A stretch of 64,000 bases of DNA from an uncultured virus (IMG/VR IMGVR_UViG_3300028393_000063) (IMGVR_UViG_3300028393_000063), one strand, 5' to 3'; positions 34,455 through 57,184 are shown, numbered from the stretch's first letter. The notes: a model not told the origin generated them from the sequence alone. Translations and numbers: made by a program.

Positions 34455-37400
34455 TTAATCTAACTTTATTGGTTTGGATTTTCCATCTTTACTATTTCCG
34501 TCTTTAGTACTGGCTCCTATAAATGTAGTTGCCGCTCTCATAGCTATATTTTCAGCATCTGTATAATCAGCCGGAGTCATTTTGTCTATACCTATCTTAT
34601 CTATTTTACTCTTAACTATCGTATTGTAAGCGTTTTTAAATGCATCAAGTTTAGCACTAAACATTTTAGTGTCTTGCGCTATTCCAGCCGCAGACAACCT
34701 ATCCGCCGCCGCAGATTCCGCTCTAATTCTTGCAGCTTCTACAGTAGCGTTAGCAGAAGTCTGTGAAGTTTTTATAGCGGTTTCATCACGAGCAATAGCA
34801 ATTGCCAAATCATTTTTTAGTCTAGCCGCACTTATACCTTGTTCAGCTGCAATCTTATCAAAAGCATTTTTATCTGTCTGAGCCAATGTGAGCAACTTAA
34901 CTTTATCTGCATACTCCACATTAGAAATATCAAAGGCTGCTTTAGCTTGTTCAATTTCGCCTTTTCTACGGTCTTTAATATCTTCCATAAATCCGGGAAC
35001 AGTTTTAGCAGCGCCTTGAGCTAAATTAGTAAAGGGATTAGCGGAAGTACCAGCAGCTGTGTTAGCCCCTAATTCCATTAACCTACCCCACATTTGCTGC
35101 TTAGCGTCAGGTTGAGCGGCTTTTAAAGCAGCTAAATAATTAGCCCCTACATCTTTTCTATCACCAGTTAACGCCGCATAGTCTGCATAGTAAGGAGACA
35201 GTTTGTTAGTATCAGCTTTAGGACCAGCTAATGCTGGAGCTGCTATTGGATTACCTTCACTATCTGTAGCCCCTGCGTAAAACTGGTTTAATTCAGCTTG
35301 GTTAGGATTAGACCCTGCTCTCATTTCTTCTTCACTAAGCCCACCATCTACAAACGCTACAATCCCACCACCAGCCATGTTAGCCATACTGCTTGAACCT
35401 GCGCCTGTAATACCAGCACTACCAAGTTGTTTAGACACGGCAGTGCCTGCGTTACGTTCAGCTAAAATTTCACTTGCTTTCTCACGAATAAACGGACTCT
35501 CGCTACTACGAGCAATCTCAGCCAGTTTATCGTTAGGCATATCACTTAACGAGGACTCTACGCTACCACCCACATCATATTTTGCAATGCCACCTTTAGC
35601 CATTTTCTTTTCTTTAATGACTCCACCTTTGGCTTTAAATCCACCTGACGCACCATAAGCACCAAGAGCCGTAGCACCAAGACCACCAATTTGACTTATT
35701 GCACTTGGAGCTGCTTGATATGTAGTTTGTTGTGATGTTGTAGGTGTAGCACGCAACAAGTTCATAATATTTGTAGCTTGAGTTGTACCGTACTGTTGTT
35801 GATTACCGTAATTCTGAATAGCCTGATTAATGAGGTTCTGTTGATTCTGTTGTTGCTGAGTACCAAGAGTATTCTGAGTATTAATAATCCCTTGCTGAGC
35901 GCCGAGTTGTTGAGTGCCAAGACCACCTAAAGTTTGAGCGGCTTGGTTAGCTTGCTGTAAACCTTGTAGACGGTAATTAGCGCCAAATTGTTGCTGTCCA
36001 ATGTTCTGTTGTTGAGCTTGTAACTGTGCTTGTTGGTTAGCAAGATTTGCTTGATTTCTAGATTGTTGGTTAGCTAAATTAGCGGCTTGGTTAAACTGCC
36101 CCTGTTGCATCCCATACTGACCTAATATTCCTTGATTAGCTAAATTGCTTTGTTGCTGGTTACTTAGATTAGCCATGCCAAATTGGTTTTGAGCGGCTTG
36201 ATTAGCTTGGTTAGCCTGTTGTTGGTTAGCTAAATTAGCCATACCAAATTGATTTTGAGCTTGTTGGTTAGCCGCATTAGCTGCCTGCCCAAATTGCCCT
36301 TGTTGTAAACCATACTGCCCCATTAAGGCTTGGTTAGCTAAGTTAGCTTGTTGTTGATTACCAGCATTAAACTGATTAGCCGCTTGTCCAAACTGCCCTT
36401 GCTGCATACCATATTGACCAGCTAATGCCTGATTTGCAAGGTTAGTTTGTTGTTGTGTCTGTTGGTTTGCTTGATTAGCAGCTTGCCCAAACTGACCTTG
36501 TTGTAGTCCATACTGCCCTGCCAACGATTGATTTGCAAGGTTAGCTTGCATTTGCGCTTGTTGGTTTGCTTGGTTTGCGGATTGACCAAACTGACCTTGT
36601 TGTAAACCGTATTGCCCCATTAACCCTTGATTTGCAAGGTTAGACTGTTGTTGCAACTGCGCATTTTGTAACCCTGTGTTATAGCCCATATTTTGGTTAG
36701 CAAGACCTGCTTGTAAATTAGCGCCTTGGTTAGCCTGTTGGGCTTGTAAACTAGCTTGTTGTTGTGCATTAAACTGTTGTTGAGCATTCTGAAATGCTTG
36801 GTTATACCCTTGACCAATTATTTGATTTTTAGCTATACCGGCATTACGTTGATTCTCAGCAGACATTAATGCTTCACGACTTCCACCAAATGCACCAGAC
36901 TTAGCTGCACCGCTTCTTTGTTGTGTGCCAGTAATATCATACTGTCTTTGTACTTCGGCAAGTTGTGGGTCTAACGCACCTTGTAAATACGGATTCATGT
37001 AACTAGATACATTTTGCCCTGTGTAATCCTGTGTACCTACATTCTGTGCGCCTACATCTCGTGGTCCACTAAATTGAGCTGCTTGATTAACTGGAGCGTT
37101 ATTTAGTTGAGCAGCTTGCATTGCGGCTGCTTGTGCTTGTGGCGAGTTACCTAATTGAGCCGCTTGCATTGCTGCTGCCTGCGCTTGCGGTGAATTTCCC
37201 ATTTGAGCAGCTTGCATTGCGGCTGCTTGTGCTTGTGGCGAGTTACCTAATTGAGCCGCTTGCATGTTTTGCCCAGACCCCATAGCCGCTTGCATGTTTT
37301 GTCCGTAACCCATAGCCGCTTGACTCATCGGCGCATATCCCATCTGAGCAGCTTGTGTTTGAGCTCCACGAATTTGGTTATACCCTGCACTCATTGGGTT

Positions 37401-37859
37401 ATACTGCGCATTTAAACCGCCAAGACCAGCTTGTTGAGCCATATTAGACGCATCGCCAAATTGACCCGGCATTTGTAAATTCTGTCCAGCCTGATAAGAC
37501 TGTTGTTGTAGCCCACTTGGACCAGCTACACCTAAACCAGCTACGCCTAACTGTTGATTATATTGGTCTTGGCTTATAGGAGCGCCAGTAAAATTACCTT
37601 GCGCATTAGTTGCGCCACCAAAAGGAGTAAATCCTTTAGAACCAAGAACTTCTCCACCCGGACCAATGTTATACGCATTGCTCATTTGTGAGCCAATTAA
37701 AGCGGAAGCGGTAGGTAAAGCCCAATCCGCAACTGGATTAACTGTAGTTTGTTGAGAAGTTGGAGCGGATTGTTGTTGTCCCCCACCACCGCCACCACCA
37801 AAACTGAACGTAAATAAATTAACTAAACTTATTGGGTTAAGGTATTTAAACAACATCAT
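34455..37859 (-). CDS. Gln/Asn/Ala/Gly-rich putative DNA-ejection (pilot) protein
   Basis: 1134 aa; YMNPY...GAFGGSR motif, long Q/N repeats, located between GNAT and giant protein. Confidence 0.7.
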   Translation of the reverse strand: MMLFKYLNPISLVNLFTFSFGGGGGGGQQQSAPTSQQTTVNPVADWALPTASALIGSQMSNAYNIGPGGEVLGSKGFTPFGGATNAQGNFTGAPISQDQYNQQLGVAGLGVAGPSGLQQQSYQAGQNLQMPGQFGDASNMAQQAGLGGLNAQYNPMSAGYNQIRGAQTQAAQMGYAPMSQAAMGYGQNMQAAMGSGQNMQAAQLGNSPQAQAAAMQAAQMGNSPQAQAAAMQAAQLGNSPQAQAAAMQAAQLNNAPVNQAAQFSGPRDVGAQNVGTQDYTGQNVSSYMNPYLQGALDPQLAEVQRQYDITGTQQRSGAAKSGAFGGSREALMSAENQRNAGIAKNQIIGQGYNQAFQNAQQQFNAQQQASLQAQQANQGANLQAGLANQNMGYNTGLQNAQLQQQSNLANQGLMGQYGLQQGQFGQSANQANQQAQMQANLANQSLAGQYGLQQGQFGQAANQANQQTQQQTNLANQALAGQYGMQQGQFGQAANQFNAGNQQQANLANQALMGQYGLQQGQFGQAANAANQQAQNQFGMANLANQQQANQANQAAQNQFGMANLSNQQQSNLANQGILGQYGMQQGQFNQAANLANQQSRNQANLANQQAQLQAQQQNIGQQQFGANYRLQGLQQANQAAQTLGGLGTQQLGAQQGIINTQNTLGTQQQQNQQNLINQAIQNYGNQQQYGTTQATNIMNLLRATPTTSQQTTYQAAPSAISQIGGLGATALGAYGASGGFKAKGGVIKEKKMAKGGIAKYDVGGSVESSLSDMPNDKLAEIARSSESPFIREKASEILAERNAGTAVSKQLGSAGITGAGSSSMANMAGGGIVAFVDGGLSEEEMRAGSNPNQAELNQFYAGATDSEGNPIAAPALAGPKADTNKLSPYYADYAALTGDRKDVGANYLAALKAAQPDAKQQMWGRLMELGANTAAGTSANPFTNLAQGAAKTVPGFMEDIKDRRKGEIEQAKAAFDISNVEYADKVKLLTLAQTDKNAFDKIAAEQGISAARLKNDLAIAIARDETAIKTSQTSANATVEAARIRAESAAADRLSAAGIAQDTKMFSAKLDAFKNAYNTIVKSKIDKIGIDKMTPADYTDAENIAMRAATTFIGASTKDGNSKDGKSKPIKLD

Positions 37860-38266
37860 AATTTTATCTCCATTAATGTGGCTTTTTTGCTAAGCCCAAT
37901 CTTTTCATACAATCTAGCTGCAGAATCTTTTGCATATGCTTGAATCCTAGTAGCCCCAGCCGACTTTAAAATTTGTTGTACTTCACTAAATAACTCGTCA
38001 TTAACAATGTTTTTGCCACCTATAGCCGTAATAAACGCCGTTCTATAATTAGCTTCATTATTAAAAGTTAATGTAATCGCCCCATGTGTTTGATTATACT
38101 CGTCAACTATAACTAATAAAAGCCAATTACCTGTAGTTAAATAAACTTTAATTTGTTCCGCACTATAATCATCCGAACATTTTGCCGCCTCAACCATAAA
38201 TTGCTCAACCATAGGCCAAATTTGTGTAATATATTGCACATTTACGGTTTGAACTTTTAAAGTCAT
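37856..38266 (-). CDS. Putative GNAT-fold protein next to ejection genes
   Basis: AFITAIGG...GATRIQAY....ARLYEKIGL resembles the GNAT C-terminal motif. Confidence 0.55.
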   Translation of the reverse strand: MTLKVQTVNVQYITQIWPMVEQFMVEAAKCSDDYSAEQIKVYLTTGNWLLLVIVDEYNQTHGAITLTFNNEANYRTAFITAIGGKNIVNDELFSEVQQILKSAGATRIQAYAKDSAARLYEKIGLSKKATLMEIKL

Positions 38267-40344
38267 GCTGGCATAAATTTGTTTGGATTAATTTTTTTAC
38301 CTTGTTTTTTAGTACCAGTACGAGCCTTCCGTACATTATCCATCATAGAATAAAGTTTCTTAGCACCGGCATCGCTAGACCCATTACCTAAATGACTAAC
38401 TACATCTGCAGGTATTACAAACTCAGAATCCGCTAAACGGGCTGGCTGTTTATGTCCTATTGTAGCTGGGATATCATCACTCATGCCATCGCCGGGACCC
38501 TTAAGCATACGTCCACCGTCTGAGTAACCACCTAAATCCCCACGCATAATACCGCCTTTTGCCATCTGAACGTCTGGGCTTTTTAAACTATTTAAAGCGT
38601 AGTTAGCATTATAGTCTCCAGCAGTTGCCGCATTAGTAACGCTAGTTAAACCTTCAGGACTAGTTTTAGCCAAAGTTATGTACTGATTAATAGCGTTTAC
38701 ATTATGAGCGCTACCAGTTTTAGCCGTAGGAGCAGTTCTAACAGTTGGCGCAGTTCTAGCCGTAGGGGCTGCTTTAGTTACCCCACCTACAGCATACCCT
38801 TCTAGTTTAGCGCCTACTGGGTACTGTTGTTGTTGCTCTGCTTGCATAGGCTCTCCAAGCATTCCTTGGTTTTGGAGTTGGTAGTCTTGCGCCGAAGCTT
38901 GTATTGGTGGAGGAAACCGCATCTGTGGCATACATCCGACTGGTTGTTGCATTGGTTGTTGTGCAACTTGTACTTGCGGGAATTGTTGTTGCCCAATTTG
39001 GAATCCGGGTGGGCGTTCTGGCATAGGTCCAATTAACGCTTGATTACGTTCTAGTGGATGTCCAGCTGGAAATGGTTGTGGTTGTTGAGTTGTGTTTCCG
39101 CCAGTAGTATTAAATCGGTCTGGCATACCGCCACCATAACCACCCTGTTGCCCACCGCCACTACCAGCAGCACTATAGCCGTTGTCATTACCTTGCCCAG
39201 ATATATCGGCTGTGCCATGCAATTCAATAGGTACGCCACCGCCAGCAAAACTAGCAATACCGCCTTTAGCCATATTACGTTGAGCAATGTTCCCATTTGT
39301 TGGGTCTGTAGCCATAGAATACTGTGAAGTTCCCATCATGGACTGTGCAGGATTAGCAAAGTTTATATTAGGAGCTGGACCCCCTAAAGCCATATCATAT
39401 GGCGCTGCATTAGTAATTCCCCCCGCCGCATATCCTACAAGTCTTTTAGCTTCTGAACCGCTAGACTGCGATGTTTCATGGTAAGGACTAACCGCTGGTT
39501 GATATGTATTTCTATCAAACGAATAACGTAACCCTTCTGGTACTGGGTTTGGAGTTGCTTTACCTAATAATTCTTCAATTAAAGATACACTACCACCTTC
39601 TTCGTACCCAATAAGTCTTTTAGCTTCTGGACTATTAGGGTAATTAGGTTGTGGAGTTCCATAATAAGGAGCATTTGCTGGCTGATATGTGTTTCTATTA
39701 AACGAGTAACGTAGTGCCTCTGGTACCTCTTGAGCAGCTTGAGGATTAATAGTATTTTGTTTACCTAAATTTTTAGCAAGATATGAAGCGCCTAAACCTA
39801 AACCAGCTTGTTTTGCACTCGGTAAATAATCCAAAAGCGATTTAGTTGCGCCCAATTGATTTAGTCCAGTACCTGTTAGTCCAGTTCCGGGCCCTGCAAC
39901 GTAACCTGAACCTACGCCAACTCCTGCCTCACCAGTACCTAAAGCACCAATAGCCGAGGGGGCAACATAATTTGAGCCTAAAGTACCGGCAGCAGCAGTT
40001 TCAGTTGCGCCTAACCCAGCGCCTGTTAACCCAGTTCCAGTTCCCGTAACATAACCTGAACCTAGAGTACCAACAGGAGCGCTAACAGCAGCGGGAGCAA
40101 CCACTCCGGGAGCAGCGCCAGCAGCAACTTCAGGGGCAAAAGCCATACCAAGACCTGCGCCGCCAGCACCTAAAGCAGCGCCACCTAACATACCTTGACC
40201 AATGTTCCCACCAGTTAAACCTGAGTATATTCCACCAGCGCCAGCGCCTATAGCAGCTCCGCCTATCATAGTGGCTGCAGTAGCCCCAAGAGCGTCAGCT
40301 CCAATATATGTACCGACTGCCAAAGCTACGTCAACAAAAGCCAT
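38263..40344 (-). CDS. Gly/Ala-rich putative internal virion protein
   Basis: ATG at 40344 after GAGGAG; N-terminal glycine-zipper; C-terminal GPGDGMSDDIPA...ARLADSEFVIPADVVS domain. Confidence 0.7.
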   Translation of the reverse strand: MAFVDVALAVGTYIGADALGATAATMIGGAAIGAGAGGIYSGLTGGNIGQGMLGGAALGAGGAGLGMAFAPEVAAGAAPGVVAPAAVSAPVGTLGSGYVTGTGTGLTGAGLGATETAAAGTLGSNYVAPSAIGALGTGEAGVGVGSGYVAGPGTGLTGTGLNQLGATKSLLDYLPSAKQAGLGLGASYLAKNLGKQNTINPQAAQEVPEALRYSFNRNTYQPANAPYYGTPQPNYPNSPEAKRLIGYEEGGSVSLIEELLGKATPNPVPEGLRYSFDRNTYQPAVSPYHETSQSSGSEAKRLVGYAAGGITNAAPYDMALGGPAPNINFANPAQSMMGTSQYSMATDPTNGNIAQRNMAKGGIASFAGGGVPIELHGTADISGQGNDNGYSAAGSGGGQQGGYGGGMPDRFNTTGGNTTQQPQPFPAGHPLERNQALIGPMPERPPGFQIGQQQFPQVQVAQQPMQQPVGCMPQMRFPPPIQASAQDYQLQNQGMLGEPMQAEQQQQYPVGAKLEGYAVGGVTKAAPTARTAPTVRTAPTAKTGSAHNVNAINQYITLAKTSPEGLTSVTNAATAGDYNANYALNSLKSPDVQMAKGGIMRGDLGGYSDGGRMLKGPGDGMSDDIPATIGHKQPARLADSEFVIPADVVSHLGNGSSDAGAKKLYSMMDNVRKARTGTKKQGKKINPNKFMPA

Positions 40345-40345
40345 A

Positions 40346-40750
40346 TTATTTCTCCTCTTCCAGCAATGGCTGGGTGTTTTCAACGCACATATTTTCTAAC
40401 TTTTCTATATCGGTTTCTTCAGTTGCGTAAATGTTTTGAAATACAACCGTTTCTATAATATAAGCTATCTTTCTGCCCTTACTTCCCATAAATGTCATTG
40501 GCGCTACTAGTTCAATTCTTTCACCATCTTCTTTGACTATAATCATACGCCCTTGCAACATAACGCACATATGGTCTAATTTATGGGGCTTACCAATAAT
40601 AATTGCCCCAGCAGGCATTATTACTTCTTTAATATATAAACTTGGTCCAAAGTAATGATTTTCTTTACACTTAACCTGTGGAGCCGCCCTAAACTTACCC
40701 ATTAAAGCTTCTACTTTTTGAGTCGTAGTTTGTTGTATTGATTGGTTCAT
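40346..40750 (-). CDS. Cupin-like protein
   Basis: HYFGPSLYIKE...PAG...GKPHKLDH...G.M beta-rich pattern. Confidence 0.55.
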   Translation of the reverse strand: MNQSIQQTTTQKVEALMGKFRAAPQVKCKENHYFGPSLYIKEVIMPAGAIIIGKPHKLDHMCVMLQGRMIIVKEDGERIELVAPMTFMGSKGRKIAYIIETVVFQNIYATEETDIEKLENMCVENTQPLLEEEK

Positions 40751-41244: not shown

Positions 41245-41282
41245 ATACTGTCCCTATACATAATTATGTTGATTTTATCATA

Positions 41283-48134: not shown

Positions 48135-48135
48135 A

Positions 48136-48708: not shown

Positions 48709-48719
48709 TTTAATTCTCC

Positions 48720-51700
48720 TTAAGGATGGGTTGCTTTGTATGCGTCAAATTCTGCTTTTAACTGCTTTATTGCGTTTATCATGTACCAAGTTAGGTTGTC
48801 CGAGTCTACAGACATAACACCGGTGCTTTCAGTCTTAATACACTCAGGCAATATCTGTTGAAGTTCTTGGGCAATAACACCAAGTTGAACGCCTTCTTTT
48901 TTAATTGCTTGACTTTGCGGTAAGTCGGTAACTTCTTCAGGTAAACGGTATTCAAAGTTACGCACTTGAATTTGTGTAATCTTATCTAGACCTGTGTTGT
49001 TGTCTACAATGTTCTTTTTAAGTCTTGCGTCAGAAGTAATAGACCACGATAAAGAATTGTTACCTTGATATACGCCACCAGCACCGGGATTAATAAATCC
49101 TGTGGTAGTACCTTTACCAGCGGAGTTATACCCAATAACGATTTCATTTGTTGGGCTTGCGCCTGACGGATAAGCATATGAGCCAACATAAACATTGGAG
49201 TTGCCAGTTGTTAAATTTGAACCCCCTACTGGAGAACCATATCCAGAACTAGTACCAAAACACGAATTATTAGAACCGCTTGTAATAGCATAACCAGATT
49301 GATAACCAAAAAGGTTATTTCCAGCACCATCAAGGCTATAGCCAGCCTGATAACCTACTGCGGTGCTACTAGAGGCGGTGTTGTTATTGATAAGCGATTG
49401 CTGACCAAAAGCCGTATTGTACGAACCTGTAGTGTTGCTTAATAAAGAATAAAAACCAAAAGCGTTATTAGATACACCAGTTGTATTTGCAGTAAGTGCT
49501 TGAAAACCAAACGCATCTGAACCTCCAGTAGTGTTTGCTCTTAGTGCTTGATAACCTACGGCTGTAGAATTTCCGGCTGTGTTTGCGTACAGTGCTTGAT
49601 AACCAACTGCTGTGTTGTTTGAGCCAGAAGCACCGCCATTTGCTACGCTTAATGCACCTGAACCTAATGCAGTATTGTAAGAACCTGTTGCTCTATATCC
49701 TGCATAACCACCTACATAAGTATTATCAATTCCTGCTGTATTAAAGTATCCTGCGCTTGCGCCAATATATACCTGACCTTGATTAGAGCCACCGCCAGTA
49801 TATGAATATGCCGCTTGCGAACCTACTGCAACTAGAGTTGGCGCTACAGTACTGCTATACAAGGCTTGATAACCTACGGCTACAATATTAGAGGCGGTGG
49901 TGTTTGAACGCAAAGCGCCAGAGCCTAAAGCCACATTATAACTACCAGTTGTATTTAACTCTAATGTCCCACTTGAAATACCGGGAACACTACCTCCAAC
50001 TGCAACGTTTTGTGTACCTGTGGTATTTGAGGTTAAAGACATGGCACCAAATGCAGCATTGTAAGCGCCACTGGTGTTACTGCTCAATGCTTCTGCTCCA
50101 AATGCTGCATTCCAGCGACCGACAGCGCCACTTGAGCCTTTTAGTGCATTTCCACCCATTGCTGTATTGCCATCACCTGCATTCCAGTATGTTGCTTGAT
50201 AGCCCACTGCGGTGTTGTTATTACTGCTTACATTCTTGTCTAGTGCGCCCGACCCAATGGCAACATTGTTACTACCAGTGGTTGTGCTTTCTAAAGCATA
50301 ATCACCGATTGCTATGTTGTAGTTAGCAGTAGTATTGCCTAGTGCTGCTCTGTAACCAATAGCAACTAAGTTTATACCTGTAGTGTTTGCATATCCTGCT
50401 TGATAACCTACGGCTGTGTTTTGAGAGGCGGTGGTGTTTGCTCTTAATGCTTCTACGCCTAATGCAGTATTGTAAGAACCACTTGTGTTTTGTAATAGAG
50501 CCTGTTGTCCTATAGCAGTTAGATAAGAACCAGCACCTGTAGATGCTACTGCCGCATCTCCAACAATAGTGTTATATGAACCTGTATTTAAGTATCCAGA
50601 AAAAGAACCAGCAAATAAATTATTACTGCCAGTATTTGATTTTCCAGCAAAATAACCTATACCAGTTTGCCTATCTGTTGTAGTTGTTGTATATAAAGAC
50701 TGATAACCTACTGCTGTGTTATTAGAGGCGGTGGTGTTGGAGCCTAATGCACCAGTACCAACTGCAATATTGTATGAACCCGTACTGTTGCCACTCAGCG
50801 CAGAAACAGAATTAGCAACATACTCCCCCCCAACTGCTACGTTGGCAACACCCGTTGTGTTGCTATATAGGGCATTACGTCCGAATGCGTGTAAAGCCGT
50901 TCCCGTGGTATTGCTATACCCTGCTTGATAGCCTACTGCTGTATTGTTAGAGGCGGTGGTGTTTTTCTCTAGCGCTGACCTACCAAGGGCAGTATTAAAG
51001 GAGCCAGTGGTATTTTGTTGTAAAGCCCAGTAGCCTAAAGCCGCATTAGAGCCTCCACTACTATTTGTTGATAGCGCCCCAGAACCAACAGCAGTGTTAA
51101 AAGATGTTGTATTGCCGTAAAGTGTTTGATAACCTACTGCTACGTTGTCTGTGCCAGTAAGGTTTGAGTTCATGGCTGAGTAACCGAGAACTGTATTATA
51201 TGCACCTGATGTGTTTTGATTTAAAGCATACCCACCAACAACAGTATTTGCATCCCCTGTAGTATTTGATGCTAAAGCCTCTCGACCAACTGCTACAGAA
51301 CCTCCACCTGTAGTATTAGCCCTTAAAGCATTCATTCCAACTGCTGTTAGACTACCACCTGTACTGTTTGTGTATAAAGACTGATAGCCTACTGCTGTGT
51401 TGTTAGAGGCGGTGGTGTTTTGTGCTAATGCCGCAGTTCCTATAGCAGTATTGTAACTACCTGAACTATTGCTAAACAACGCACCATATGTTCCAGCATC
51501 TTGTGAGCCAACAGCAGTATTGTAAGAGCCTGATGTAGTTAAATACATAGCGTAATTACCAAGAGCCAAGTTGTTATTTCCACTTGTAATACTTGCCAAT
51601 CCACTAGCACCAACTACGGTGTTATTAGTAGCCCCAGCGTTTCCACGCCCCACTCTTACACCATAAACAGTTAAGTCAGTACCTGAGTATAAAAGGTTGG

Positions 51701-52073
51701 CTGAGTCTGTTAGTAGACCGTCCGTAGTAGCATAAGCAACACGACCACTTGTTAATGCGGCTGAACTTAAATTGACAGACCGCTCACTAGGATAAGTTAG
51801 GAATACGTTCTGTGTACCAGTACTAAAGTTAGTTAAAGAGCCAGCATTAGATGAGGAGAGCACCGTGGTACGGGCTAATGTTCCAGACGAGTAAGTACCA
51901 ATACCTACTTCCCAATTAGCTCCATTCTGGTCAGCTATAGCGTAGTAACAAGTATTACCGTTGCCTACCGTGCTAAATGCTTGGTAGCCTGTAACTGCGC
52001 CTAATAACGTAATCGTACCTGTACCGGGAGAAGTACAGGTCTCTAGTACTCTGTCCTTTAATACTAATGCCAT
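48720..52073 (-). CDS. Tail fibre/spike with NTAVG repeats and C-terminal S74 intramolecular chaperone
   Basis: Many NxAxGxxAL repeats; SDARLKKNI...GVIAQE...AIKQL. Confidence 0.9.
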   Translation of the reverse strand: MALVLKDRVLETCTSPGTGTITLLGAVTGYQAFSTVGNGNTCYYAIADQNGANWEVGIGTYSSGTLARTTVLSSSNAGSLTNFSTGTQNVFLTYPSERSVNLSSAALTSGRVAYATTDGLLTDSANLLYSGTDLTVYGVRVGRGNAGATNNTVVGASGLASITSGNNNLALGNYAMYLTTSGSYNTAVGSQDAGTYGALFSNSSGSYNTAIGTAALAQNTTASNNTAVGYQSLYTNSTGGSLTAVGMNALRANTTGGGSVAVGREALASNTTGDANTVVGGYALNQNTSGAYNTVLGYSAMNSNLTGTDNVAVGYQTLYGNTTSFNTAVGSGALSTNSSGGSNAALGYWALQQNTTGSFNTALGRSALEKNTTASNNTAVGYQAGYSNTTGTALHAFGRNALYSNTTGVANVAVGGEYVANSVSALSGNSTGSYNIAVGTGALGSNTTASNNTAVGYQSLYTTTTTDRQTGIGYFAGKSNTGSNNLFAGSFSGYLNTGSYNTIVGDAAVASTGAGSYLTAIGQQALLQNTSGSYNTALGVEALRANTTASQNTAVGYQAGYANTTGINLVAIGYRAALGNTTANYNIAIGDYALESTTTGSNNVAIGSGALDKNVSSNNNTAVGYQATYWNAGDGNTAMGGNALKGSSGAVGRWNAAFGAEALSSNTSGAYNAAFGAMSLTSNTTGTQNVAVGGSVPGISSGTLELNTTGSYNVALGSGALRSNTTASNIVAVGYQALYSSTVAPTLVAVGSQAAYSYTGGGSNQGQVYIGASAGYFNTAGIDNTYVGGYAGYRATGSYNTALGSGALSVANGGASGSNNTAVGYQALYANTAGNSTAVGYQALRANTTGGSDAFGFQALTANTTGVSNNAFGFYSLLSNTTGSYNTAFGQQSLINNNTASSSTAVGYQAGYSLDGAGNNLFGYQSGYAITSGSNNSCFGTSSGYGSPVGGSNLTTGNSNVYVGSYAYPSGASPTNEIVIGYNSAGKGTTTGFINPGAGGVYQGNNSLSWSITSDARLKKNIVDNNTGLDKITQIQVRNFEYRLPEEVTDLPQSQAIKKEGVQLGVIAQELQQILPECIKTESTGVMSVDSDNLTWYMINAIKQLKAEFDAYKATHP

Positions 52074-52086
52074 GATTGGCTCCTAA

Positions 52087-52695: not shown

Positions 52696-52703
52696 AATTA
52701 CTC

Positions 52704-53132
52704 CTAATTAAGAAGAATAACAGCGGTTGTTGAAGTCGCTGAAGGGAAAGTTATAGTAAATGTTTCTGATGCTGTTTTATTTGAACCAAAATCTAACACA
52801 CAAATAGCCGCAGACGTTGTGCTATTATAAATCAAAGCCCCTCGTGTAGTAAAGGATGCTCCTGTCCAAACTACATTATCAAATGAAATATATGCGGTAT
52901 TGTTTATAAAATCAACTGCTGGCACTATTGGAGTTAAGGTTTTTCCTCCGGCGGTGTATCCCCCGCCAACAATCTCATTGCTAGTAGTATAAGCAAGAGT
53001 TGAGCTGTCCAGAGTAGCCAGAGATGTATAAAGTGCAATTTTATAAACATAAGTAGTTCCTACGGCAAAATTTTCTAAGCCACTTAAAAGATTCTTTTTA
53101 AATATTGTAGTTTGGCCTTGGGTAAAAGACAT
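52704..53132 (-). CDS. Virion structural protein (tail-associated)
   Basis: FK..LL.G...KIALY...GYTAGG...RGALIYN...VLDFG. Confidence 0.6.
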   Translation of the reverse strand: MSFTQGQTTIFKKNLLSGLENFAVGTTYVYKIALYTSLATLDSSTLAYTTSNEIVGGGYTAGGKTLTPIVPAVDFINNTAYISFDNVVWTGASFTTRGALIYNSTTSAAICVLDFGSNKTASETFTITFPSATSTTAVILLN

Positions 53133-54046
53133 TAACTAACCCCTATCTTAACTTGACCATCTCTATAAGCATCGCCACGCTCCAGACCATCACCAAGGCG
53201 TTTAGCTAGGGCTACGGCTTCAGTAAACTTCTGTTCGTAATAAGTGACCATATCCTGCTCACCCTTCATAAATATCATGGCTTCCCGCATTGCACCATAC
53301 AGGAGAACAGGGTCAAAGTTATCACCAAGCCAAGAAGTCCCAGTTGTATTATTAACCGCAGTCACGGGTATAGAGAACCCAGAACCAGAACCGACACCGA
53401 TATTAGCTGCATTAAAGCTTAGGGTATCCCCTACTATGTAAAATTGTCCACCATTAGTTAGAGTTACGCCTGTAACAATACCAGCAACAATAGTTAATGT
53501 AGCTACAGCCCCCATACCAGAACCACCTGTTAACGGTATGTTTGTGTACGTTCCGCTAGTGTATAAAGTTCCGCCAGTAATAGTGCCTAATAAGGTAACA
53601 ATACCCTGCACAATAGAGGCTGGGTAAAAGAAATAGTGCAACTCTACAGGATAACTAGAGTTTGGTGTAGGCCCCATAATGACTGATAATTCAGTGTTTA
53701 AGGTGTATTGTGGGCCAAATAAGGCGTAATACTTAGGTGTTCCTGTATCAGTTGCTTTAGGATAAGCCTGTCTAATATAATTAACATCTTTATTAAGTAA
53801 GTACTCGTAGCCATCTGCCGTTACTACAGCCAGTGAGTAAGTAGCTAAAAAGTCGTTTGGCAAAGAGAGGTATTGATTACCTGAAGTTAGAGTCCCCGTT
53901 ACATTTTTGCGTAGCGAAGGAAACTGTATTGTATTAAAGATACGCTCTTCAGCCTGTTGTACAAACGTAGGAATGCTCGATATAAAGAGCGATTCCGTAT
54001 TCTCAGCGTAGTTCTGAATTGTTTGGTACAACGTAACGTAATTCAT
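53132..54046 (-). CDS. Head-tail adaptor-like protein with inserted beta-rich domain
   Basis: FVQQAEERI...GTPKYY...GPTP...LLYGAM; Gly/Thr-rich insertion. Confidence 0.6.
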   Translation of the reverse strand: MNYVTLYQTIQNYAENTESLFISSIPTFVQQAEERIFNTIQFPSLRKNVTGTLTSGNQYLSLPNDFLATYSLAVVTADGYEYLLNKDVNYIRQAYPKATDTGTPKYYALFGPQYTLNTELSVIMGPTPNSSYPVELHYFFYPASIVQGIVTLLGTITGGTLYTSGTYTNIPLTGGSGMGAVATLTIVAGIVTGVTLTNGGQFYIVGDTLSFNAANIGVGSGSGFSIPVTAVNNTTGTSWLGDNFDPVLLYGAMREAMIFMKGEQDMVTYYEQKFTEAVALAKRLGDGLERGDAYRDGQVKIGVS

Positions 54047-54336
54047 TATGCCATCGGCCCTCTAGACATTAAGCCTTTAGTAGCAGCGCCTGTACCACGC
54101 ATCTTAATACCAGAAGTCTTAACATCATCTCTTCCGGGGTCTCCTGCGCTTACACGCATAGCTTGTGAGGAAGGTCTTGTTTGTTTAGCACTTAATGTAT
54201 TTGGGTCTACAGCACCAGATACGGCTTTCATAGCGTCTTTAGGACCTAATGAAGTACCTGCCATTGTATGTGGAGTAGCGTATACGGAAGCTTGTCCAAC
54301 TTCCTTACCCATTACTTTGTTAGAAAATTTAGCCAT
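54046..54336 (-). CDS. Small basic late protein
   Basis: GIKMRGTGAATKG motif. Confidence 0.65.
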   Translation of the reverse strand: MAKFSNKVMGKEVGQASVYATPHTMAGTSLGPKDAMKAVSGAVDPNTLSAKQTRPSSQAMRVSAGDPGRDDVKTSGIKMRGTGAATKGLMSRGPMA

Positions 54337-54338
54337 GA

Positions 54339-54509
54339 TTATTTCCCAAATTGGTTTTTAAGTTTAGCCATATTACGCCCCACAGCTTTCATAGCATCTT
54401 GCGTTTTACCACCTTTAGCCATTTTAGTTGGTTTAGAACCCTTGTGCATACTTTTTTCATGCTTACGCACTTCAGTATCTGCAATTGATTTTACTTCTTT
54501 TTTGTCCAT
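54339..54509 (-). CDS. Small basic late protein (56 aa) with MAKGG motif
   Basis: Manual translation MDKKEVKSIADTEVRKHEKSMHKGSKPTKMAKGGKTQDAMKAVGRNMAKLKNQFGK; SD AGGAG. Confidence 0.7.
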   Translation of the reverse strand: MDKKEVKSIADTEVRKHEKSMHKGSKPTKMAKGGKTQDAMKAVGRNMAKLKNQFGK

Positions 54510-54519
54510 TTTATGCTCC

Positions 54520-54936
54520 TTAACTTACGGTTACGCTATTTGTTACACCTATAGATTGTAAACTATTCGGTGTTTCCCCAAAATCATATTTAAACCCTAC
54601 CGGGTTCCAACTCCATTGAATCTGTCTACTACCCCCACTAGGAGTTCCATAACCATCTAAAGTATCCCCAGCGGATTCATTTATAATAATACCAGTATTC
54701 CCAGATTGATAATAGCTATTATCTCTACGTGGTTCTCTTACAGCCTGCGGGTCATTGACCGGATACATACCTAATTGCAATTGTGGCTGGTCAGGTTCCC
54801 AACACTCAGGACATACTTTAATGCTAACTTGCTTAGTCTTAATTGTTAGTTTTTTTAAGTCCGTGAGTTTAAATCTAAAGCCACATCTATCGCACTCAGC
54901 AATTGAAAATCTGCCAGAGGTAAACATCGTAGTCAT
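54520..54936 (-). CDS. Zn-ribbon-containing late protein
   Basis: CDRC...CPEC, DPQAVREPR. Confidence 0.7.
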   Translation of the reverse strand: MTTMFTSGRFSIAECDRCGFRFKLTDLKKLTIKTKQVSIKVCPECWEPDQPQLQLGMYPVNDPQAVREPRRDNSYYQSGNTGIIINESAGDTLDGYGTPSGGSRQIQWSWNPVGFKYDFGETPNSLQSIGVTNSVTVS

Positions 54937-54940
54937 TGCA

Positions 54941-55672
54941 TTACCTTAAAAACGTAACACGAGGTATATATCTATCGGGCGCTTTTTCTCTATCTTCCGC
55001 TGCGGCTAAAGCAAATTGCTCTTCGTAATCTTGTTTAAGACTTATAATCCGTTGTGGGTCTACCCCTTTTAATTTAATAGACAAGTAATAAGCTAATCCT
55101 GCTACCACAGCAGGTATAAATCTAAATGGAATATCTTGTGTATTAACAGCTGTACCTGCATCTTGAATGCGCCTTAAACGCCAGTATACAAACGTATAAT
55201 ACGGGCTTGCTATCGTTCCTTGGTCAGGGGTAGGCCACACTACTATCTTGGGGTTATTTACGCCTGTAGGGTACGTTGCGCCGCTTTGACGGTTAATCCA
55301 AACTTGGATTGGTCGCCCTTGCGCTAATTTATTAGGAATTGTAGAGTAGGTAGATACACTGATGCGGCTGATGGTGATATCGGTCTGATTATTCTGTTGA
55401 CCCGCATTAGTACGGATTTGATGTTCGAGTAAATCAATTGTATCAACTGGTAAGTCATATGTGTTTATCCCCTGCCCCATTGGTATGGTGCCTTGTTCAA
55501 TAGTCCAAAGGTTAATACCACGATTAGCCCACTCAATAGTAAGTATGTTTAATGAACGTCTTGCTGTCTTAAAGTCATAACCCGTGCGTATTTCAAGACC
55601 GCATCTTTCAAATGACTCTTCAATAAGTTCACTTAAATCAAGGTTAAATGCGGAGGTACCTGTTGTAGTCAT
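54941..55672 (-). CDS. Head-tail connector/tubular A-like protein
   Basis: ARRSLN...WAN.GINLW...GRP...WPTPD...GLAYYL. Confidence 0.65.
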   Translation of the reverse strand: MTTTGTSAFNLDLSELIEESFERCGLEIRTGYDFKTARRSLNILTIEWANRGINLWTIEQGTIPMGQGINTYDLPVDTIDLLEHQIRTNAGQQNNQTDITISRISVSTYSTIPNKLAQGRPIQVWINRQSGATYPTGVNNPKIVVWPTPDQGTIASPYYTFVYWRLRRIQDAGTAVNTQDIPFRFIPAVVAGLAYYLSIKLKGVDPQRIISLKQDYEEQFALAAAEDREKAPDRYIPRVTFLR

Positions 55673-56003
55673 TTACTAGCTTTCTTTGCTTTACTAGCGG
55701 CTTTTTGAGCAGTTATATTAACAAGCGCTTTTTTAGCTACAGTTGTTGTTTTTTTAACAACTTGCTTTTTAACGGGTGCTACTACTCCCACAACATCTTG
55801 TGGTTTTGGCATATACCAATTAGTTAGCCACAGTAGTATTTTATTTAGCATATTATACCCTAACGTATAAACATTATTCTAAGTATAAACAAGTCTAATA
55901 CAAAATAACTAAAGTCTTCGTCTGTAACTAATTCAAACCCAAACATCACACCTTTAATAAAGTGTAAATCAATACTAAATAACGGTTCGGTGTCTTCGTT
56001 CAT
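55669..56003 (-). CDS. Two small ORFs (55669-55851 Lys-rich; 55860-56003 hydrophobic, 47 aa)
   Basis: They fill the operon without gaps; the second was translated manually (MNEDTEPLFSIDLHFIKGVMFGFELV...). Confidence 0.5.
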
Positions 56004-56236
56004 TATCTGTACCCTGCGGTTTTCTTTGCTATGTTTTTCGGTTGTGCTACAAACTGTTTACCTTTTGCTTTACCCGCCCGCTTTGCCCGTGTAGTTGCGG
56101 CATACTCTTGCGGACTTAACGCATCAATAGCCTTCTTTGGTAAATACCGCTCACCCGTTACAGATGATTTCTTACCTGACTTGGTTGTCCATTTCTGGTC
56201 CCCCCAAGCTTTTAAAGACTGTTGTGGCGCTTTCAA
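56003..56236 (-). CDS. Small basic late protein
   Basis: QQSLKAW..QKWTT...GERYLPK. Confidence 0.7.
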   Translation of the reverse strand: MKAPQQSLKAWGDQKWTTKSGKKSSVTGERYLPKKAIDALSPQEYAATTRAKRAGKAKGKQFVAQPKNIAKKTAGYR

Positions 56237-56487
56237 TCTTTATACCCCCCACCGGCGGCTTTGTATTTCTTTGCTACCAATTGAGCCTTACGAGCTGACC
56301 ATTTCCCTGCGCCTGTGCCTTGTGTTGCTGCGGATTTAACCTGAGAAACAATACGCTTTCTAAGACTAGGTTTAGTGTAATTACCAGCTGCGTTTACTTT
56401 ACCGCCTTTTTTTAATAAGACGGCGGACTTGGAACTATCAGGTTGTTTTGCTGGGCTAATTGCTCCCATGCCCCGACTAGCTTTCAT
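56233..56487 (-). CDS. Small basic late protein
   Basis: LKKGG, NYTKPSLR, WSARKAQ...YK..GGGY. Confidence 0.7.
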   Translation of the reverse strand: MKASRGMGAISPAKQPDSSKSAVLLKKGGKVNAAGNYTKPSLRKRIVSQVKSAATQGTGAGKWSARKAQLVAKKYKAAGGGYKD

Positions 56488-56756
56488 TTTGTCTTGCCGC
56501 CTCTACACATACCATAACCACGAGTAGCTAATTGACCAGCAACTTTACCGCCCTTAGCCATTTTTTTAGTGGCTGTAGGAGGAGTGTCTGAAGTCATAGA
56601 TTTATACTTTTCTACGACATAATCTTTAGCTTTACGTAAAGGAGCCATCATAGCTTCACGGTCTTGCTTGTTTTCTTCCGTTGCTATTTTATCGGTTATT
56701 TCTTTAGCCGTAGGCTTGCCCTTATACTCGTCTGGGTCGTATTTTTGCTCAGCCAT
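56484..56756 (-). CDS. Small late protein with MAKGG motif
   Basis: KKMAKGGKV...TRGYG. Confidence 0.7.
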   Translation of the reverse strand: MAEQKYDPDEYKGKPTAKEITDKIATEENKQDREAMMAPLRKAKDYVVEKYKSMTSDTPPTATKKMAKGGKVAGQLATRGYGMCRGGKTK

Positions 56757-56758
56757 GA

Positions 56759-57184
56759 TTAGCAGACCTTGCCTTTAGTTTTGCCCTTAGACTCAATCCC
56801 ACCACCTTTAGACATTTTTTTAACCTTGCCGCCTTTTTTCATCATACCCATTTCAGCGGTTTCGTGTTTTACCATAGAAGCCGGAGCTCCCTTTTTCTTC
56901 ATAAATGCAACTTCTTTTCCTACCATTTTTTTAGACTCTGCCATACCGCCTCCTTTTAGACCTACATGTTTACTAAGACTATAATTGGGAACCCCACCTT
57001 CTGTATGATGGGCTTTTGGTTTGTTAATACTTGCGGGCATACCGCCCTTTTTAAATGTTTTACCTTTATCTGCTTCTGCAAAATCTTTACCTACCGATTG
57101 AGGTACGCCTAATCTTTTTGCTGCTTTAGGATTGTGCGCAACCAACTCCATAAACCGATGCTGTTTTGCTGTTTTACTTGGCAT
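56759..57184 (-). CDS. Basic late protein with four xxxGG motifs
   Basis: Start MPSKTAKQHRFM at 57184; FKKGG, LKGGG, MKKGG, MSKGG. Confidence 0.7.
   Translation of the reverse strand: MPSKTAKQHRFMELVAHNPKAAKRLGVPQSVGKDFAEADKGKTFKKGGMPASINKPKAHHTEGGVPNYSLSKHVGLKGGGMAESKKMVGKEVAFMKKKGAPASMVKHETAEMGMMKKGGKVKKMSKGGGIESKGKTKGKVC

What the first reader, a model, noticed from the sequence alone, without database searches (positions are those of the whole stretch)
35330..57184. A recurring [MFYL]xxGG peptide tag shared by ejection proteins and small basic late proteins
About 20 copies occur in six otherwise unrelated late proteins. ORF 34455-37859 has MAKGG, YDVGG, MAGGG, FVDGG. ORF 38263-40344 has YEEGG, YAAGG, MALGG, MAKGG twice, FAGGG, YAVGG, YSDGG. 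ORF 54339 has MAKGG, 56233 has LKKGG, 56484 has MAKGG and MCRGG, and 56759 has FKKGG, LKGGG, MKKGG, MSKGG. The motif is often followed by a hydrophobic residue within two positions and sits in disordered regions. A duplicated unit in 38263-40344 ends in the motif both times. Di-Gly sites are established maturation cleavage signals in adenovirus and ASFV. Inference: a capsid-targeting signal or polyprotein cleavage code for internal head cargo. No classical prohead protease was recognised, so the reader of the tag is unknown.
Basis: partly seen in the sequence, partly recalled or inferred. Interest (0 to 1): 0.85.

Follow-up and report, generated by a model that had tools for sequence, protein, structure and literature searches.

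The report
Gly-Gly joint motif in phage virion proteins
A short peptide (bulky residue, Ala or Lys, any residue, Gly, Gly) really does recur in the proteins this aquatic short-tailed phage probably carries in its particle, it is kept in thousands of relatives, and it matches the spot where phage T5 cuts its tail ruler protein, but whether it is cut or serves as a docking tag here is still open.

Summary
Observation confirmed. All 20 listed words are at the stated places. In the six proteins [MFYL]xxGG occurs 23 times against 6.1 expected from within-protein shuffles (0 of 2000 shuffles reach it). Inside the window alone an unbiased scan is only modest (M..GG 10 vs 3.1, rank 22 of 8000 patterns). 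The decisive support comes from relatives. All 120 best homologues of the small protein g56759 carry at least 2 copies (mean 4.8 vs 0.47). Homologues of ejection protein g38263 keep 214 copies vs 63 expected in sequence that otherwise does not align. A 13-residue tandem form (two copies 8-9 residues apart, Met first, Tyr/Phe second) is shared by three unrelated families.

The motif lies in predicted disorder, at module borders. Its context in g38263 resembles tape measure proteins. T5 pb2 is cut exactly at R|AEGG, and lambda gpH has FATGG where its unmapped cut should lie.

Best reading (0.4): a processing joint, cut before Ala rather than after Gly-Gly. A docking tag (0.3) is not excluded. 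No protease was found, and the Ntn (HslV-like) gene is absent from 5 of 5 relatives. The adenovirus/ASFV analogy is not supported.

The parts
38263..40344 (-). g38263, 693-aa putative ejection protein with tape-measure-like features. It has a Gly-rich hydrophobic N-terminus, a variable middle with 8 motif copies and a conserved C-terminal module.
   Evidence: 65 related loci match mainly residues ~590-693. Homologues keep 2-7 [MFY]xxGG copies each, except a truncated 81-aa ORF at a contig end with none.
38266..38565 (-). Conserved C-terminal module of g38263 (residues 594-693). It starts at MAKGG and YSDGG, then runs GPGDGMSDDIPA...SEFVIPADVVSHLGNGS...KKLYSMMD and ends in a basic tail.
   Evidence: Alignment A1: 23 sequences, 69% mean column identity. 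Profile hit to the Douge tape measure protein 8zdo_S, E = 9.6e-4, two copies. hhalign to the lambda gpH C-terminus: probability 20%, E = 1.1e-3. AF2 pLDDT 60, with only the helix at residues 75-93 of the 110-residue model confident.
39592..39606 (-). YEEGG, end of the first duplicated unit of g38263
39418..39432 (-). YAAGG, end of the second duplicated unit of g38263
39379..39393 (-). MALGG in g38263
39235..39273 (-). Tandem pair MAKGG-IAS-FAGGG in g38263 (spacing 8)
38782..38796 (-). YAVGG in g38263
38512..38565 (-). MAKGG ... YSDGG at the start of the conserved C-terminal module. YSDGG is the commonest word among homologues.
   Evidence: (YSDGG seen 31 times)
34455..37859 (-). g34455, 1134-aa putative ejection protein. 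It has an N-terminal Gly run, Gln/Asn-rich repeats and two tandem motif pairs between the repeat region and the helical C-terminus.
   Evidence: Family of 29 distinct homologues: 64 copies vs 33.7 expected. Tandem spacing 8 or 9 in 5+6 of 63 pairs.
35565..35603 (-). Tandem pair MAKGG-IAK-YDVGG in g34455 (spacing 8), preceded by KAKGG
35340..35378 (-). Tandem pair MAGGG-IVA-FVDGG in g34455 (spacing 8)
56759..57184 (-). g56759, 141-aa small basic protein: a folded N-terminal three-helix domain (residues 1-42), then a disordered Lys/Gly/Met-rich tail with 4 motif copies, ending in Cys
   Evidence: 7306 homologues at E <= 1e-3. PHROG 16759 covers residues 1-46 only.
57041..57055 (-). FKKGG, first residues after the folded N-domain of g56759
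   Evidence: Stand-alone N-domains in KTN4 and BUCT555 stop just before this point.
56945..56959 (-). LKGGG in g56759
   Evidence: The module between this copy and FKKGG is deleted cleanly in 4 of 15 aligned homologues.
56801..56842 (-). Tandem pair MKKGG-KVKK-MSKGG in g56759 (spacing 9), followed by GIESKGKTKGKVC
56484..56756 (-). g56484, 90-aa small protein with MAKGG (56547-56561) and MCRGG (56496-56510). The last copy lies 3 residues from the C-terminus.
   Evidence: No tblastn match in 5 relatives, but similar small proteins sit at the same place.
56233..56487 (-). g56233, 84-aa small basic protein with LKKGG (56401-56415)
   Evidence: The same position holds YAEGG, LKKGG and YAEGG in the G002, G003 and G006 homologues. 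PHROG 17747.
54339..54509 (-). g54339, 56-aa small basic protein with MAKGG (54408-54422). This is the weakest member.
   Evidence: Of the four counterparts at the same place in relatives, only G005 (MMHGG) has a copy.

Best explanation
SHOWN. The window is most of the genome of an uncultured aquatic short-tailed phage near the HTVC023P-type pelagiphages. Three unrelated protein families in its virion module share one short linear motif, K/G-[M/Y/F]-[A/K]-x-G-G-x-[hydrophobic]. The families are the tape-measure-like ejection protein g38263, the ejection protein g34455 and the g56759 family of small basic proteins. The motif often occurs as a 13-residue tandem (Met first, Tyr/Phe second, 8-9 residues apart). 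It lies in predicted disorder. It marks the points where conserved modules begin, end, are inserted or are lost. It is kept by selection on the peptide, not by DNA repeats.

INFERRED. The motif is a processing joint of proteins that leave the particle with the DNA, inherited from the tape-measure and ejection-protein world. At such a joint phage T5 cuts its tape measure protein pb2 between the bulky residue and Ala (R1127|AEGG). Lambda gpH has FATGG where its unmapped cut should lie. Here a cut at M594|AKGG or Y607|SDGG would free the 86-99-residue conserved C-terminal module of g38263, which compares with the 92-residue pb2C. In the small basic proteins, cuts would free short basic peptides. 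The enzyme is not a recognisable phage gene, so it is probably a host activity or one coupled to assembly.
For: - Motif enrichment: 23 vs 6.1 in the six proteins, 0 of 2000 shuffles.
- g38263 family: 214 vs 63.4.
- g56759 family: 120 of 120 best homologues have >= 2 copies and 119 have >= 3, mean 4.78 vs 0.47.
- 120 longer forms: mean 7.62 vs 0.78, minimum 4.
- Tandem spacing of 8 in all three families (41, 12 and 5 pairs, against about 0.15 in shuffles).
- Position kept while the word changes (LKKGG to YAEGG in g56233 homologues).
- Codons differ between copies.
- Disorder: pLDDT about 90 for residues 1-40, then 42-69. Two segments with pLDDT below 50, residues 70-79 and 117-129, overlap the last three of the four copies.
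- Module borders: stand-alone N-domains end just before the first copy, and indels are bounded by copies.
- Appended domains in L004 and L061 follow a tandem copy.
- T5: the paper passage states the cut is after R1127. The sequence there is ...SFVPR|AEGGMMY...GEHGTEVVTPM, and pb2 has only 2 A.GG words in 1219 residues.
- Lambda: FATGG at 733 and YATGG at 778 flank GEFVF. A cut after F733 gives 79.8 + 12.5 kDa, against the ~14 kDa said to be removed from the Gly-rich region, with site and catalyst unknown.
- Douge tape measure protein carries two GYAxGG...GTGRSDS...GEFI copies.
Against: - No cut has been shown in this phage or in any relative.
- No protease was found.
- Only one mapped site (T5) supports the link, and its position 0 is Arg, not Met/Tyr/Phe.
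- hhalign of the g38263 module against T5 found nothing, and against lambda only 20% probability.
- Copies 8-9 residues apart, and a last copy 2-3 residues from the C-terminus in 55 of 120 proteins, make little sense as cut sites and fit a binding tag better.
- The small proteins lack the GE-hydrophobic element that follows the motif in tape measure proteins.
- The giant LPD38 protein has none.
Confidence: 0.4

Rival explanations
1. Docking tag. The motif is an uncleaved, multivalent binding peptide. It recruits these proteins into the prohead (to the capsid inner face, scaffold or portal) or holds them in the exit channel, much as cargo-loading peptides do in encapsulins or the N-terminal signals of T4 internal proteins and P1 DarB.
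For: - Many copies per protein, and tandem pairs at a fixed spacing of 8-9.
- 55 of 120 small-family proteins end 2-3 residues after a last copy.
- The motif lies in disorder, as binding motifs typically do.
- The major capsid protein is unusually conserved among relatives (82-90% identity, against 38-70% for portal, terminase and scaffold), as expected if many partners bind it.
- P1 DarB has a capsid localisation signal (abstract and introduction passages).
Against: - The same motif occurs in tape measure proteins of long-tailed phages, which are not head cargo.
- The giant LPD38 protein has no copy.
- No partner has been identified.
Confidence: 0.3
2. Passive hinge. The motif is only a flexible, recombination-tolerant linker (a Gly-Gly hinge with a hydrophobic anchor). 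It lets modules be swapped and lets long proteins thread through the narrow channel, with no specific reader.
For: - Indels and module swaps are bounded by copies.
- The motif lies in disorder.
- No reader was found.
Against: - A plain hinge would not need Met/Tyr/Phe at position 0, Ala/Lys at +1 and a hydrophobic residue at +6 in three unrelated families.
- It would not need the ordered Met-then-Tyr/Phe tandem.
- It would not need a copy at the very C-terminus.
Confidence: 0.15
3. Chaperonin handle. The motif imitates the co-chaperonin mobile loop (Gly-Gly followed by hydrophobic residues; loop pattern recalled). It lets GroEL hold these long disordered proteins during assembly.
For: - The phage and 5 of 5 relatives encode a GroES-like protein whose loop reads EEFEGGILKS.
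- The T5 study of tail-protein cleavage with host involvement is cited among the papers showing that phage assembly depends on host chaperonins (passage).
- In T5 the Gly-Gly is followed by MMY.
Against: - After Gly-Gly the small proteins mostly have one hydrophobic residue among lysines, not a hydrophobic triplet.
- The hydrophobic residue before Gly-Gly is in a different register in the phage GroES-like loop.
- No test was possible.
Confidence: 0.05
4. Chance. The words follow from Gly-rich, low-complexity composition and local duplications.
For: - Within the window alone the unbiased scan is weak (M..GG rank 22 of 8000; Y, F and L..GG not enriched).
- Two copies sit in an obvious internal duplication.
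- The g54339 copy is kept in only 1 of 4 counterparts.
Against: - Shuffles that keep composition never reach the counts.
- The motif persists in relatives where the surrounding sequence no longer aligns.
- Other Gly-rich late proteins are depleted, for example the g41576 family at 2 vs 36.7.
Confidence: 0.03

Closest known systems
Maturation cut of the phage T5 tape measure protein pb2 into pb2* and pb2C (Linares et al. 2023, PMC10038345; passages read)
   Same: The cut after R1127 falls on R|AEGG, that is on x-A-x-G-G followed by hydrophobic residues and then a GE...V..P element. It frees a 92-residue C-terminal piece, similar in size to the 86-99-residue conserved module of g38263. The protein leaves the particle ahead of the DNA.
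   Different: Position 0 is Arg in T5 and Met/Tyr/Phe here. T5 is a long-tailed phage and pb2C carries a peptidase motif. hhalign finds no similarity between the two modules. No cut has been shown here. The small basic proteins have no T5 counterpart.
Lambda gpH cleaved to gpH* and gpHC (Ur-lambda paper, PMC12617516; passages read)
   Same: gpH carries FATGG (733) and YATGG (778) around GEFVF...LYRLM, in the same order as MAKGG/YSDGG...SEFVI...LYSMM in g38263. About 14 kDa is removed from the Gly-rich C-terminal region. A cut after F733 would remove 12.5 kDa.
   Different: The lambda site and its catalyst are unknown, so this is a prediction and not a match. Similarity is weak (hhalign probability 20%).
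T4 capsid targeting sequence of internal proteins, removed by the prohead protease gp21 (recalled, no call); P1 DarB N-terminal capsid localisation signal (PMC9024508, passages)
   Same: Short peptide signals on proteins packed in the head and ejected with the DNA.
   Different: Those signals are single and N-terminal. In T4 they are cut by a phage-encoded prohead protease at a different consensus. Here the motif is internal or C-terminal, present in many copies, with no prohead protease found.
Adenovirus adenain and ASFV pS273R Gly-Gly-X maturation sites (recalled, no call)
   Same: Gly-Gly in the site; small basic core proteins among the substrates.
   Different: The hydrophobic residue is one position closer to Gly-Gly in the adenain consensus. 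The cut there follows Gly-Gly, whereas the T5 cut precedes Ala. No clan-CE peptidase is present.
Polyvalent proteins of phages and conjugative elements (Iyer et al. 2017, recalled; Pfam LPD38)
   Same: Modular, head-packed, ejected proteins with swappable modules. The neighbouring giant g27932 has LPD38 (E = 8.8e-14) and a weak YkuD match (E = 2.4e-4, 22.1 bits, under Pfam's 23.4-bit cut-off).
   Different: The LPD38 protein itself has no motif copy. The motif carriers have no LPD domain.

Membership tests
Tape-measure-type maturation joint (T5 pb2, lambda gpH) | x-A-x-G-G word directly at the cut, followed by hydrophobic residues | tested here: met
   T5 reads R|AEGGMMY. The window has 6 [MYF]AxGG words in g38263 and 2 in g34455. 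Position 0 differs (Arg against Met/Tyr/Phe).
Tape-measure-type maturation joint (T5 pb2, lambda gpH) | Downstream GE-hydrophobic element and homology of the C-terminal module | tested here: inconclusive
   g38263 has SEFVIPADVV. hhalign against lambda gpH gives probability 20%, E = 1.1e-3, and against T5 nothing. The Douge tape measure protein matches at E = 9.6e-4. The small proteins lack the element.
Tape-measure-type maturation joint (T5 pb2, lambda gpH) | The protein is actually cleaved in the virion | not testable with these tools
   Needs virion mass spectrometry or Edman sequencing.
T4-type capsid targeting sequence with prohead protease | Single N-terminal signal | tested here: not met
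   Copies are internal or C-terminal, 1-8 per protein.
T4-type capsid targeting sequence with prohead protease | Phage-encoded prohead protease | tested here: not met
   None found in Pfam, PHROGs or NCBIfam scans of 68 window ORFs. The PHROG 133 and 4523 hits lie in the capsid part of fused families.
Adenain / pS273R Gly-Gly-X sites | Clan-CE cysteine peptidase encoded by the virus | tested here: not met
   No such family hit.
Adenain / pS273R Gly-Gly-X sites | Hydrophobic residue two positions before Gly-Gly (consensus recalled) | tested here: not met
   Here it is three positions before Gly-Gly in both logos.
KGG stress-protein repeat (Pfam PF10685; YciG, YmdF) | Match to the KGG profile | tested here: not met
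   No KGG hit for 11 small proteins even at E <= 10.
Encapsulin-type cargo-loading peptide | Peptide binds the inner face of an HK97-fold shell protein | not testable with these tools
   Needs a binding or packaging assay.
Polyvalent proteins (LPD domains) | LPD domain in the carrier | tested here: not met
   LPD38 occurs only in g27932, which has 0 copies. The six carriers have no Pfam domain.

The most novel reading that the evidence does not exclude
One conserved joint, bulky-Ala-x-Gly-Gly, is the recognition site of a so far unidentified endoproteolytic step that is host-provided or coupled to assembly. Tape measure proteins of long-tailed phages (T5, lambda) and the ejection and internal proteins of abundant aquatic short-tailed phages share this step. 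In the small Lys-rich proteins it turns a polyprotein into a set of short basic peptides packed with the DNA, the bacteriophage counterpart of the adenovirus core peptides. It also predicts the unmapped lambda gpH cut at F733|A734.
Probability: 0.25. Interest if true: 0.85.

Novelty: new variant of a known kind. Interest (0 to 1): 0.66.

Why it matters
The carriers belong to a very large, unnamed protein family: 7306 hits in the near-length search and 437 longer forms, none with a Pfam domain or a source name among the 240 listed. They come from a phage group related to the HTVC023P-type pelagiphages, described as widespread in the ocean (abstract).

If the motif is a cut site, it gives the first sequence rule for the maturation of tape measure and ejection proteins. 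According to the 2025 lambda paper, the site in gpH and the catalyst of that step are still unknown. The rule makes a direct prediction for lambda: a cut after F733, giving fragments of 79.8 and 12.5 kDa.

If it is a docking tag, it is a portable 13-residue handle for loading proteins into phage particles. Either way it lets module borders in these otherwise unalignable proteins be read from sequence.

Tried and rejected
- Complex prediction, capsid protein (A2) with residues 95-141 of g56759 (A3): no verdict, score 0.00 against a mark of 0.32, controls not run. Not used either way.
- AF2 of the g38263 C-terminal module: mean pLDDT 60.4, too poor for a fold search. No fold search was run.
- Search for a reader. 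The atlas search of g62140 gave only unnamed viral clusters plus a 0.86 lead to Phage-scaffold. PDB sequence search gave 0 hits. Its sequence reads like a scaffold. NCBIfam and relaxed Pfam scans gave nothing above threshold.
- HslV-like gene as reader: rejected, absent from 5 of 5 relatives.
- DNA-level repeat or recombination hot spot: rejected, codons and flanks differ.
- Internal start codons at the Met: rejected, because Tyr/Phe alternate at that position and there is no common upstream signal.
- 'Bracket' idea, that tandem pairs flank long inserts: rejected. 51 and 42 of 138 flanks are tandem, against 404 of 914 motifs overall.
- KGG stress repeat: no profile match.
- hhalign against T5 pb2: nothing.
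- Literature. 'MAKGG' anywhere in full text returned 0 papers. The HTVC023P genome paper has 0 occurrences of internal, ejection, protease, glycine, proteom or scaffold. The P1 paper does not bear on a tape-measure cut. In Douge only residues 1658-1699 of the tape measure protein are modelled, so the matched stretches are not resolved. I found no paper describing this motif with these searches. Subscription journals and bioRxiv supplements were not seen.
- The own assembly is not held. Earlier notes by place and by sequence gave nothing.

Full report
WHAT THE WINDOW IS

The window holds most of a phage genome of about 64 kb. Early and replication genes run on the plus strand from 3.8 to 27.6 kb (DNA polymerase, helicase, primase).

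The late genes run on the minus strand from 64 kb down to 27.9 kb. In that order they are:
- portal (2-862, running off the window) and large terminase;
- a GroES-like protein (63179-63586);
- a scaffold-like protein (62140-63168);
- the HK97-fold major capsid protein (60057-60974);
- a run of small basic proteins (54.3-57.7 kb);
- two SU10-type adaptor proteins;
- tail fibres, holin and endolysin;
- a nozzle-like structural protein;
- three large terminal genes typical of the ejection proteins of short-tailed phages: 38263-40344 (693 aa), 34455-37859 (1134 aa) and 27932-34444 (2170 aa, with LPD38 and a weak, sub-threshold YkuD match).

The capsid protein is 62-69% identical to those of Pelagibacter phages HTVC023P and HTVC027P and of phage MinM2. 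Five near-complete uncultured relatives (G002-G006, 60.7-65.2 kb) were fetched whole.

CHECK OF THE OBSERVATION

The duplicated unit in 38263-40344 does end in the motif both times.

In the six proteins [MFYL]xxGG occurs 23 times against 6.11 expected from shuffles that keep each protein's composition. None of 2000 shuffles reaches 23. Met stands three residues before a Gly-Gly 9 times in the six proteins and never in the other 32 late proteins.

Choosing the six proteins was post hoc. An unbiased scan of all 8000 patterns of this shape over the 40 late proteins puts M..GG only at rank 22 (10 vs 3.09). It shows no proteome-wide excess for Tyr, Phe or Leu. The window alone is therefore suggestive, not decisive.

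EVIDENCE FROM RELATIVES

This is what settles the observation.

A scan of IMG/VR found 65 loci encoding relatives of 38263-40344. Nearly all align only over the last ~100 residues. Yet of the 36 homologous ORFs found with the conserved C-terminal core, 35 carry 2-7 [MFY]xxGG words in the parts that do not align. The exception is a truncated 81-aa ORF at a contig end.

Counts by family, over distinct sequences:
- 38263 family: 214 vs 63.4 expected (55 sequences);
- 34455 family: 64 vs 33.7 (29 sequences);
- other Gly-rich structural families are depleted, for example the 41576 family at 2 vs 36.7 (50 sequences). One, the holin family of 44207 (18 sequences), reads 17 vs 1.6, which is the single word FYFGG recurring at one position.

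The small protein 56759-57184 has 7306 database relatives at E <= 1e-3, none named or carrying a Pfam domain among the 120 listed. All 120 have at least two copies and 119 have at least three (mean 4.78 vs 0.47 shuffled).

The 120 best of 437 longer forms (mean 368 aa) have 4-13 copies (mean 7.62 vs 0.78).

In homologues of 56233-56487 the copy stays at the same place while the word changes (LKKGG, YAEGG, LKKGG, YAEGG in the window, G002, G003 and G006). The copy in 54339-54509 is the weak one, because only 1 of its 4 counterparts has it.

ANATOMY OF THE MOTIF

The logos of the small family (383 distinct contexts) and of the 38263 family (135 contexts) agree:
- Lys or Gly before the motif;
- Met/Phe/Tyr at position 0;
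- Ala (40% and 57%), or Lys in the small family, at +1;
- Gly-Gly at +3 and +4;
- a hydrophobic residue at +6.

Two copies 8 or 9 residues apart are common in all three families: 41+55 of 453 neighbour pairs, 12+3 of 129, and 5+6 of 63. Shuffles give about 0.15 for a spacing of 8. The order is usually Met first, then Tyr or Phe. This 13-residue tandem (for example MAKGGIAKYDVGG, MAKGGIASFAGGG, MKKGGMAKYARGG) is a more specific shared feature than the five-residue word. It ties the small proteins to the ejection proteins.

The copies are not DNA repeats, because their codons and flanks differ.

AlphaFold2 with 66 sequences folds residues 1-42 of the small protein with confidence (pLDDT about 90, three helices) and leaves everything from the first copy onward at 42-69. 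Of the four copies, the last three overlap the two segments with pLDDT below 50 (residues 70-79 and 117-129); the first lies where confidence falls after the folded domain.

Stand-alone versions of that N-terminal domain in KTN4 and BUCT555 end just before the place of the first copy. In the alignment, whole modules come and go between two copies, leaving one copy behind. In two long homologues of 38263-40344 an extra domain is appended after a tandem copy.

92 of 120 small-family proteins end in Cys, and 55 of 120 end 2-3 residues after a last copy.

LINK TO TAPE MEASURE PROTEINS

A profile of the conserved C-terminal module of 38263-40344 (MAKGG, YSDGG, then GPGDGMSDDIPA...SEFVIPADVVSHLGNGS...KKLYSMMD) finds two copies of GYAxGG...GTGRSDS...GEFI in the tape measure protein of mycobacteriophage Douge (E = 9.6e-4). 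Those stretches are not resolved in the structure.

Earlier notes of this scan on other phages pointed to the T5 tape measure protein, and I checked this. Linares et al. 2023 state that pb2 is cut after R1127, between its hydrophobic stretch and its peptidase motif (passage). The T5 sequence there reads ...SFVPR|AEGGMMYPGVSYQMGEHGTEVVTPM.

The only mapped cut of a tape measure protein therefore falls on x-A-x-G-G, between position 0 and Ala. pb2 has just two A.GG words in 1219 residues, so a chance coincidence is about 2 in 1200.

Lambda gpH has FATGG at 733 and YATGG at 778 around GEFVF...LYRLM. This aligns weakly with the g38263 module (hhalign probability 20%, E = 1.1e-3). The T5 module does not align.

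[quoted passage not shown] A cut after F733 would give 79.8 and 12.5 kDa.

HOW IT MOST LIKELY WORKS

Shown: this is a selected short linear motif in disordered segments, at module borders, shared by three unrelated virion-module families and by tape measure proteins.

Inferred, with confidence about 0.4: it is a processing joint, cut between the bulky residue and Ala. In 38263-40344 the cut would free the 86-99-residue conserved C-terminal module, as in T5, where pb2C has 92 residues. In the small basic proteins it would free short basic peptides.

No phage protease is recognisable. The HslV-like gene 59243-59662 has the MTTIL start expected of an Ntn threonine peptidase. However, it sits with an HNH endonuclease on the opposite strand and is absent from 5 of 5 relatives. 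The enzyme would therefore be a host activity or one coupled to assembly. The classic T5 study of this cleavage is cited among the papers showing that phage assembly depends on host chaperonins.

Against the cut model:
- copies lie only 8-9 residues apart;
- there are copies at the extreme C-terminus;
- T5 has Arg at position 0;
- the 2170-aa giant protein has no copy.

These points favour the main rival, an uncleaved multivalent docking tag (0.3). A passive hinge (0.15), a chaperonin handle (0.05) and chance (0.03) follow.

COMPARISON WITH WHAT IS KNOWN, AND NOVELTY

The adenovirus and ASFV analogy fails on three counts: the register of the hydrophobic residue, the side of the cut, and the lack of a clan-CE peptidase. 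The T4 capsid targeting sequence differs in position, number and protease. The KGG stress repeat does not match.

The closest known case is the T5/lambda tape measure cut, but membership is not established. The word and its neighbourhood match. Homology of the module is inconclusive. Cleavage cannot be tested here.

With my searches I found no paper that describes the motif. Several earlier notes of this scan describe the same motif in other uncultured short-tailed phages and reach the same open question. Those are not independent evidence.

I rate it a new variant of a known kind: a virion-protein maturation or loading signal with a new consensus, new carriers and an unknown reader.

Noticed in passing
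window 63179-63586 (-): A GroES-like co-chaperonin gene (PHROG 3188, E = 2.3e-7; Pfam Cpn10, E = 4.7e-4, just under the cut-off) lies in the head module. It is conserved in 5 of 5 relatives at 58-63% identity, with a loop reading EEFEGGILKS.
   Followed up: partly
window 59074-60027 (+): A three-ORF insert sits on the opposite strand between head genes: a 55-aa ORF, an HslV-like Ntn peptidase (PHROG 1040, E = 1.6e-22, starts MTTIL) and an HNH endonuclease. The peptidase is absent from 5 of 5 relatives, and the HNH gene matches elsewhere in 2 of them. It looks like a mobile insertion.
   Followed up: partly
window 27932-34444 (-): A 2170-aa giant protein has LPD38 (E = 8.8e-14) and a weak YkuD L,D-transpeptidase match (E = 2.4e-4, 22.1 bits against a cut-off of 23.4). 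It is a polyvalent-type ejected protein that carries no copy of the motif.
   Followed up: no
window 60057-60974 (-): The major capsid protein is 82-90% identical to those of G002-G004, while portal, terminase and scaffold are 38-70% identical. It is unusually constrained.
   Followed up: no
window 57434-57691 (-): An 85-aa DUF6321 protein ends in Cys. It is 90-94% identical in three relatives and matches 164 phage records, including cyanophages and pelagiphages. In PHROGs the domain also forms the C-terminus of 370-930-aa proteins.
   Followed up: partly
window 56801-56842 and small-family homologues: The unit after many copies reads G-I-E-S-K-G-K-T or G-I-A-Q-R-G-K-T. This fits the letter pattern of a Walker A loop (GxxxxGKT) inside a disordered, repeated, Lys-rich segment. 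It is probably not a nucleotide-binding fold.
   Followed up: no
window 34455-37859 (-), residues ~190-700: Long Gln/Asn-rich tandem repeats (NLANQ...GQYGLQQGQFGQAANQANQQ) fill the middle of the 1134-aa ejection protein. They cause the top-ranked patterns in the unbiased scan.
   Followed up: no
window 37856-38266 (-): A 136-aa ORF lies between the two ejection protein genes and has a weak GNAT acetyltransferase match (Pfam E = 0.09, below cut-off). It is conserved in G002 and G003 (45% identity).
   Followed up: no
loci L002, L003, L006, L018, L023, L026, L028, L032, L035 (N-termini of g38263 homologues): Many homologues, but not the window's protein, begin with a conserved segment HM..E.KGLQ.LAMAxGGSL.INP.TGL.EA. 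This segment itself contains a copy of the motif.
   Followed up: no
L095 (phage lambda gene H), residues 733-782: FATGG and YATGG flank GEFVF in lambda gpH. A cut after F733 would give 79.8 + 12.5 kDa, close to the ~14 kDa reported as removed. The lambda cut site is stated to be unknown.
   Followed up: partly
phage records OQ594354.1, OL906435.1, PP438419.1: Three records named for different cyanobacterial hosts have the same length (65,014 bases) and give identical match statistics. They may be one phage, perhaps of a co-cultured bacterium.
   Followed up: no
window 48720-52073 (-): A 1117-aa tail fibre or spike has a C-terminal Peptidase_S74 intramolecular chaperone domain (E = 3.7e-12). 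This is a self-cleaving element unrelated to the motif.
   Followed up: no
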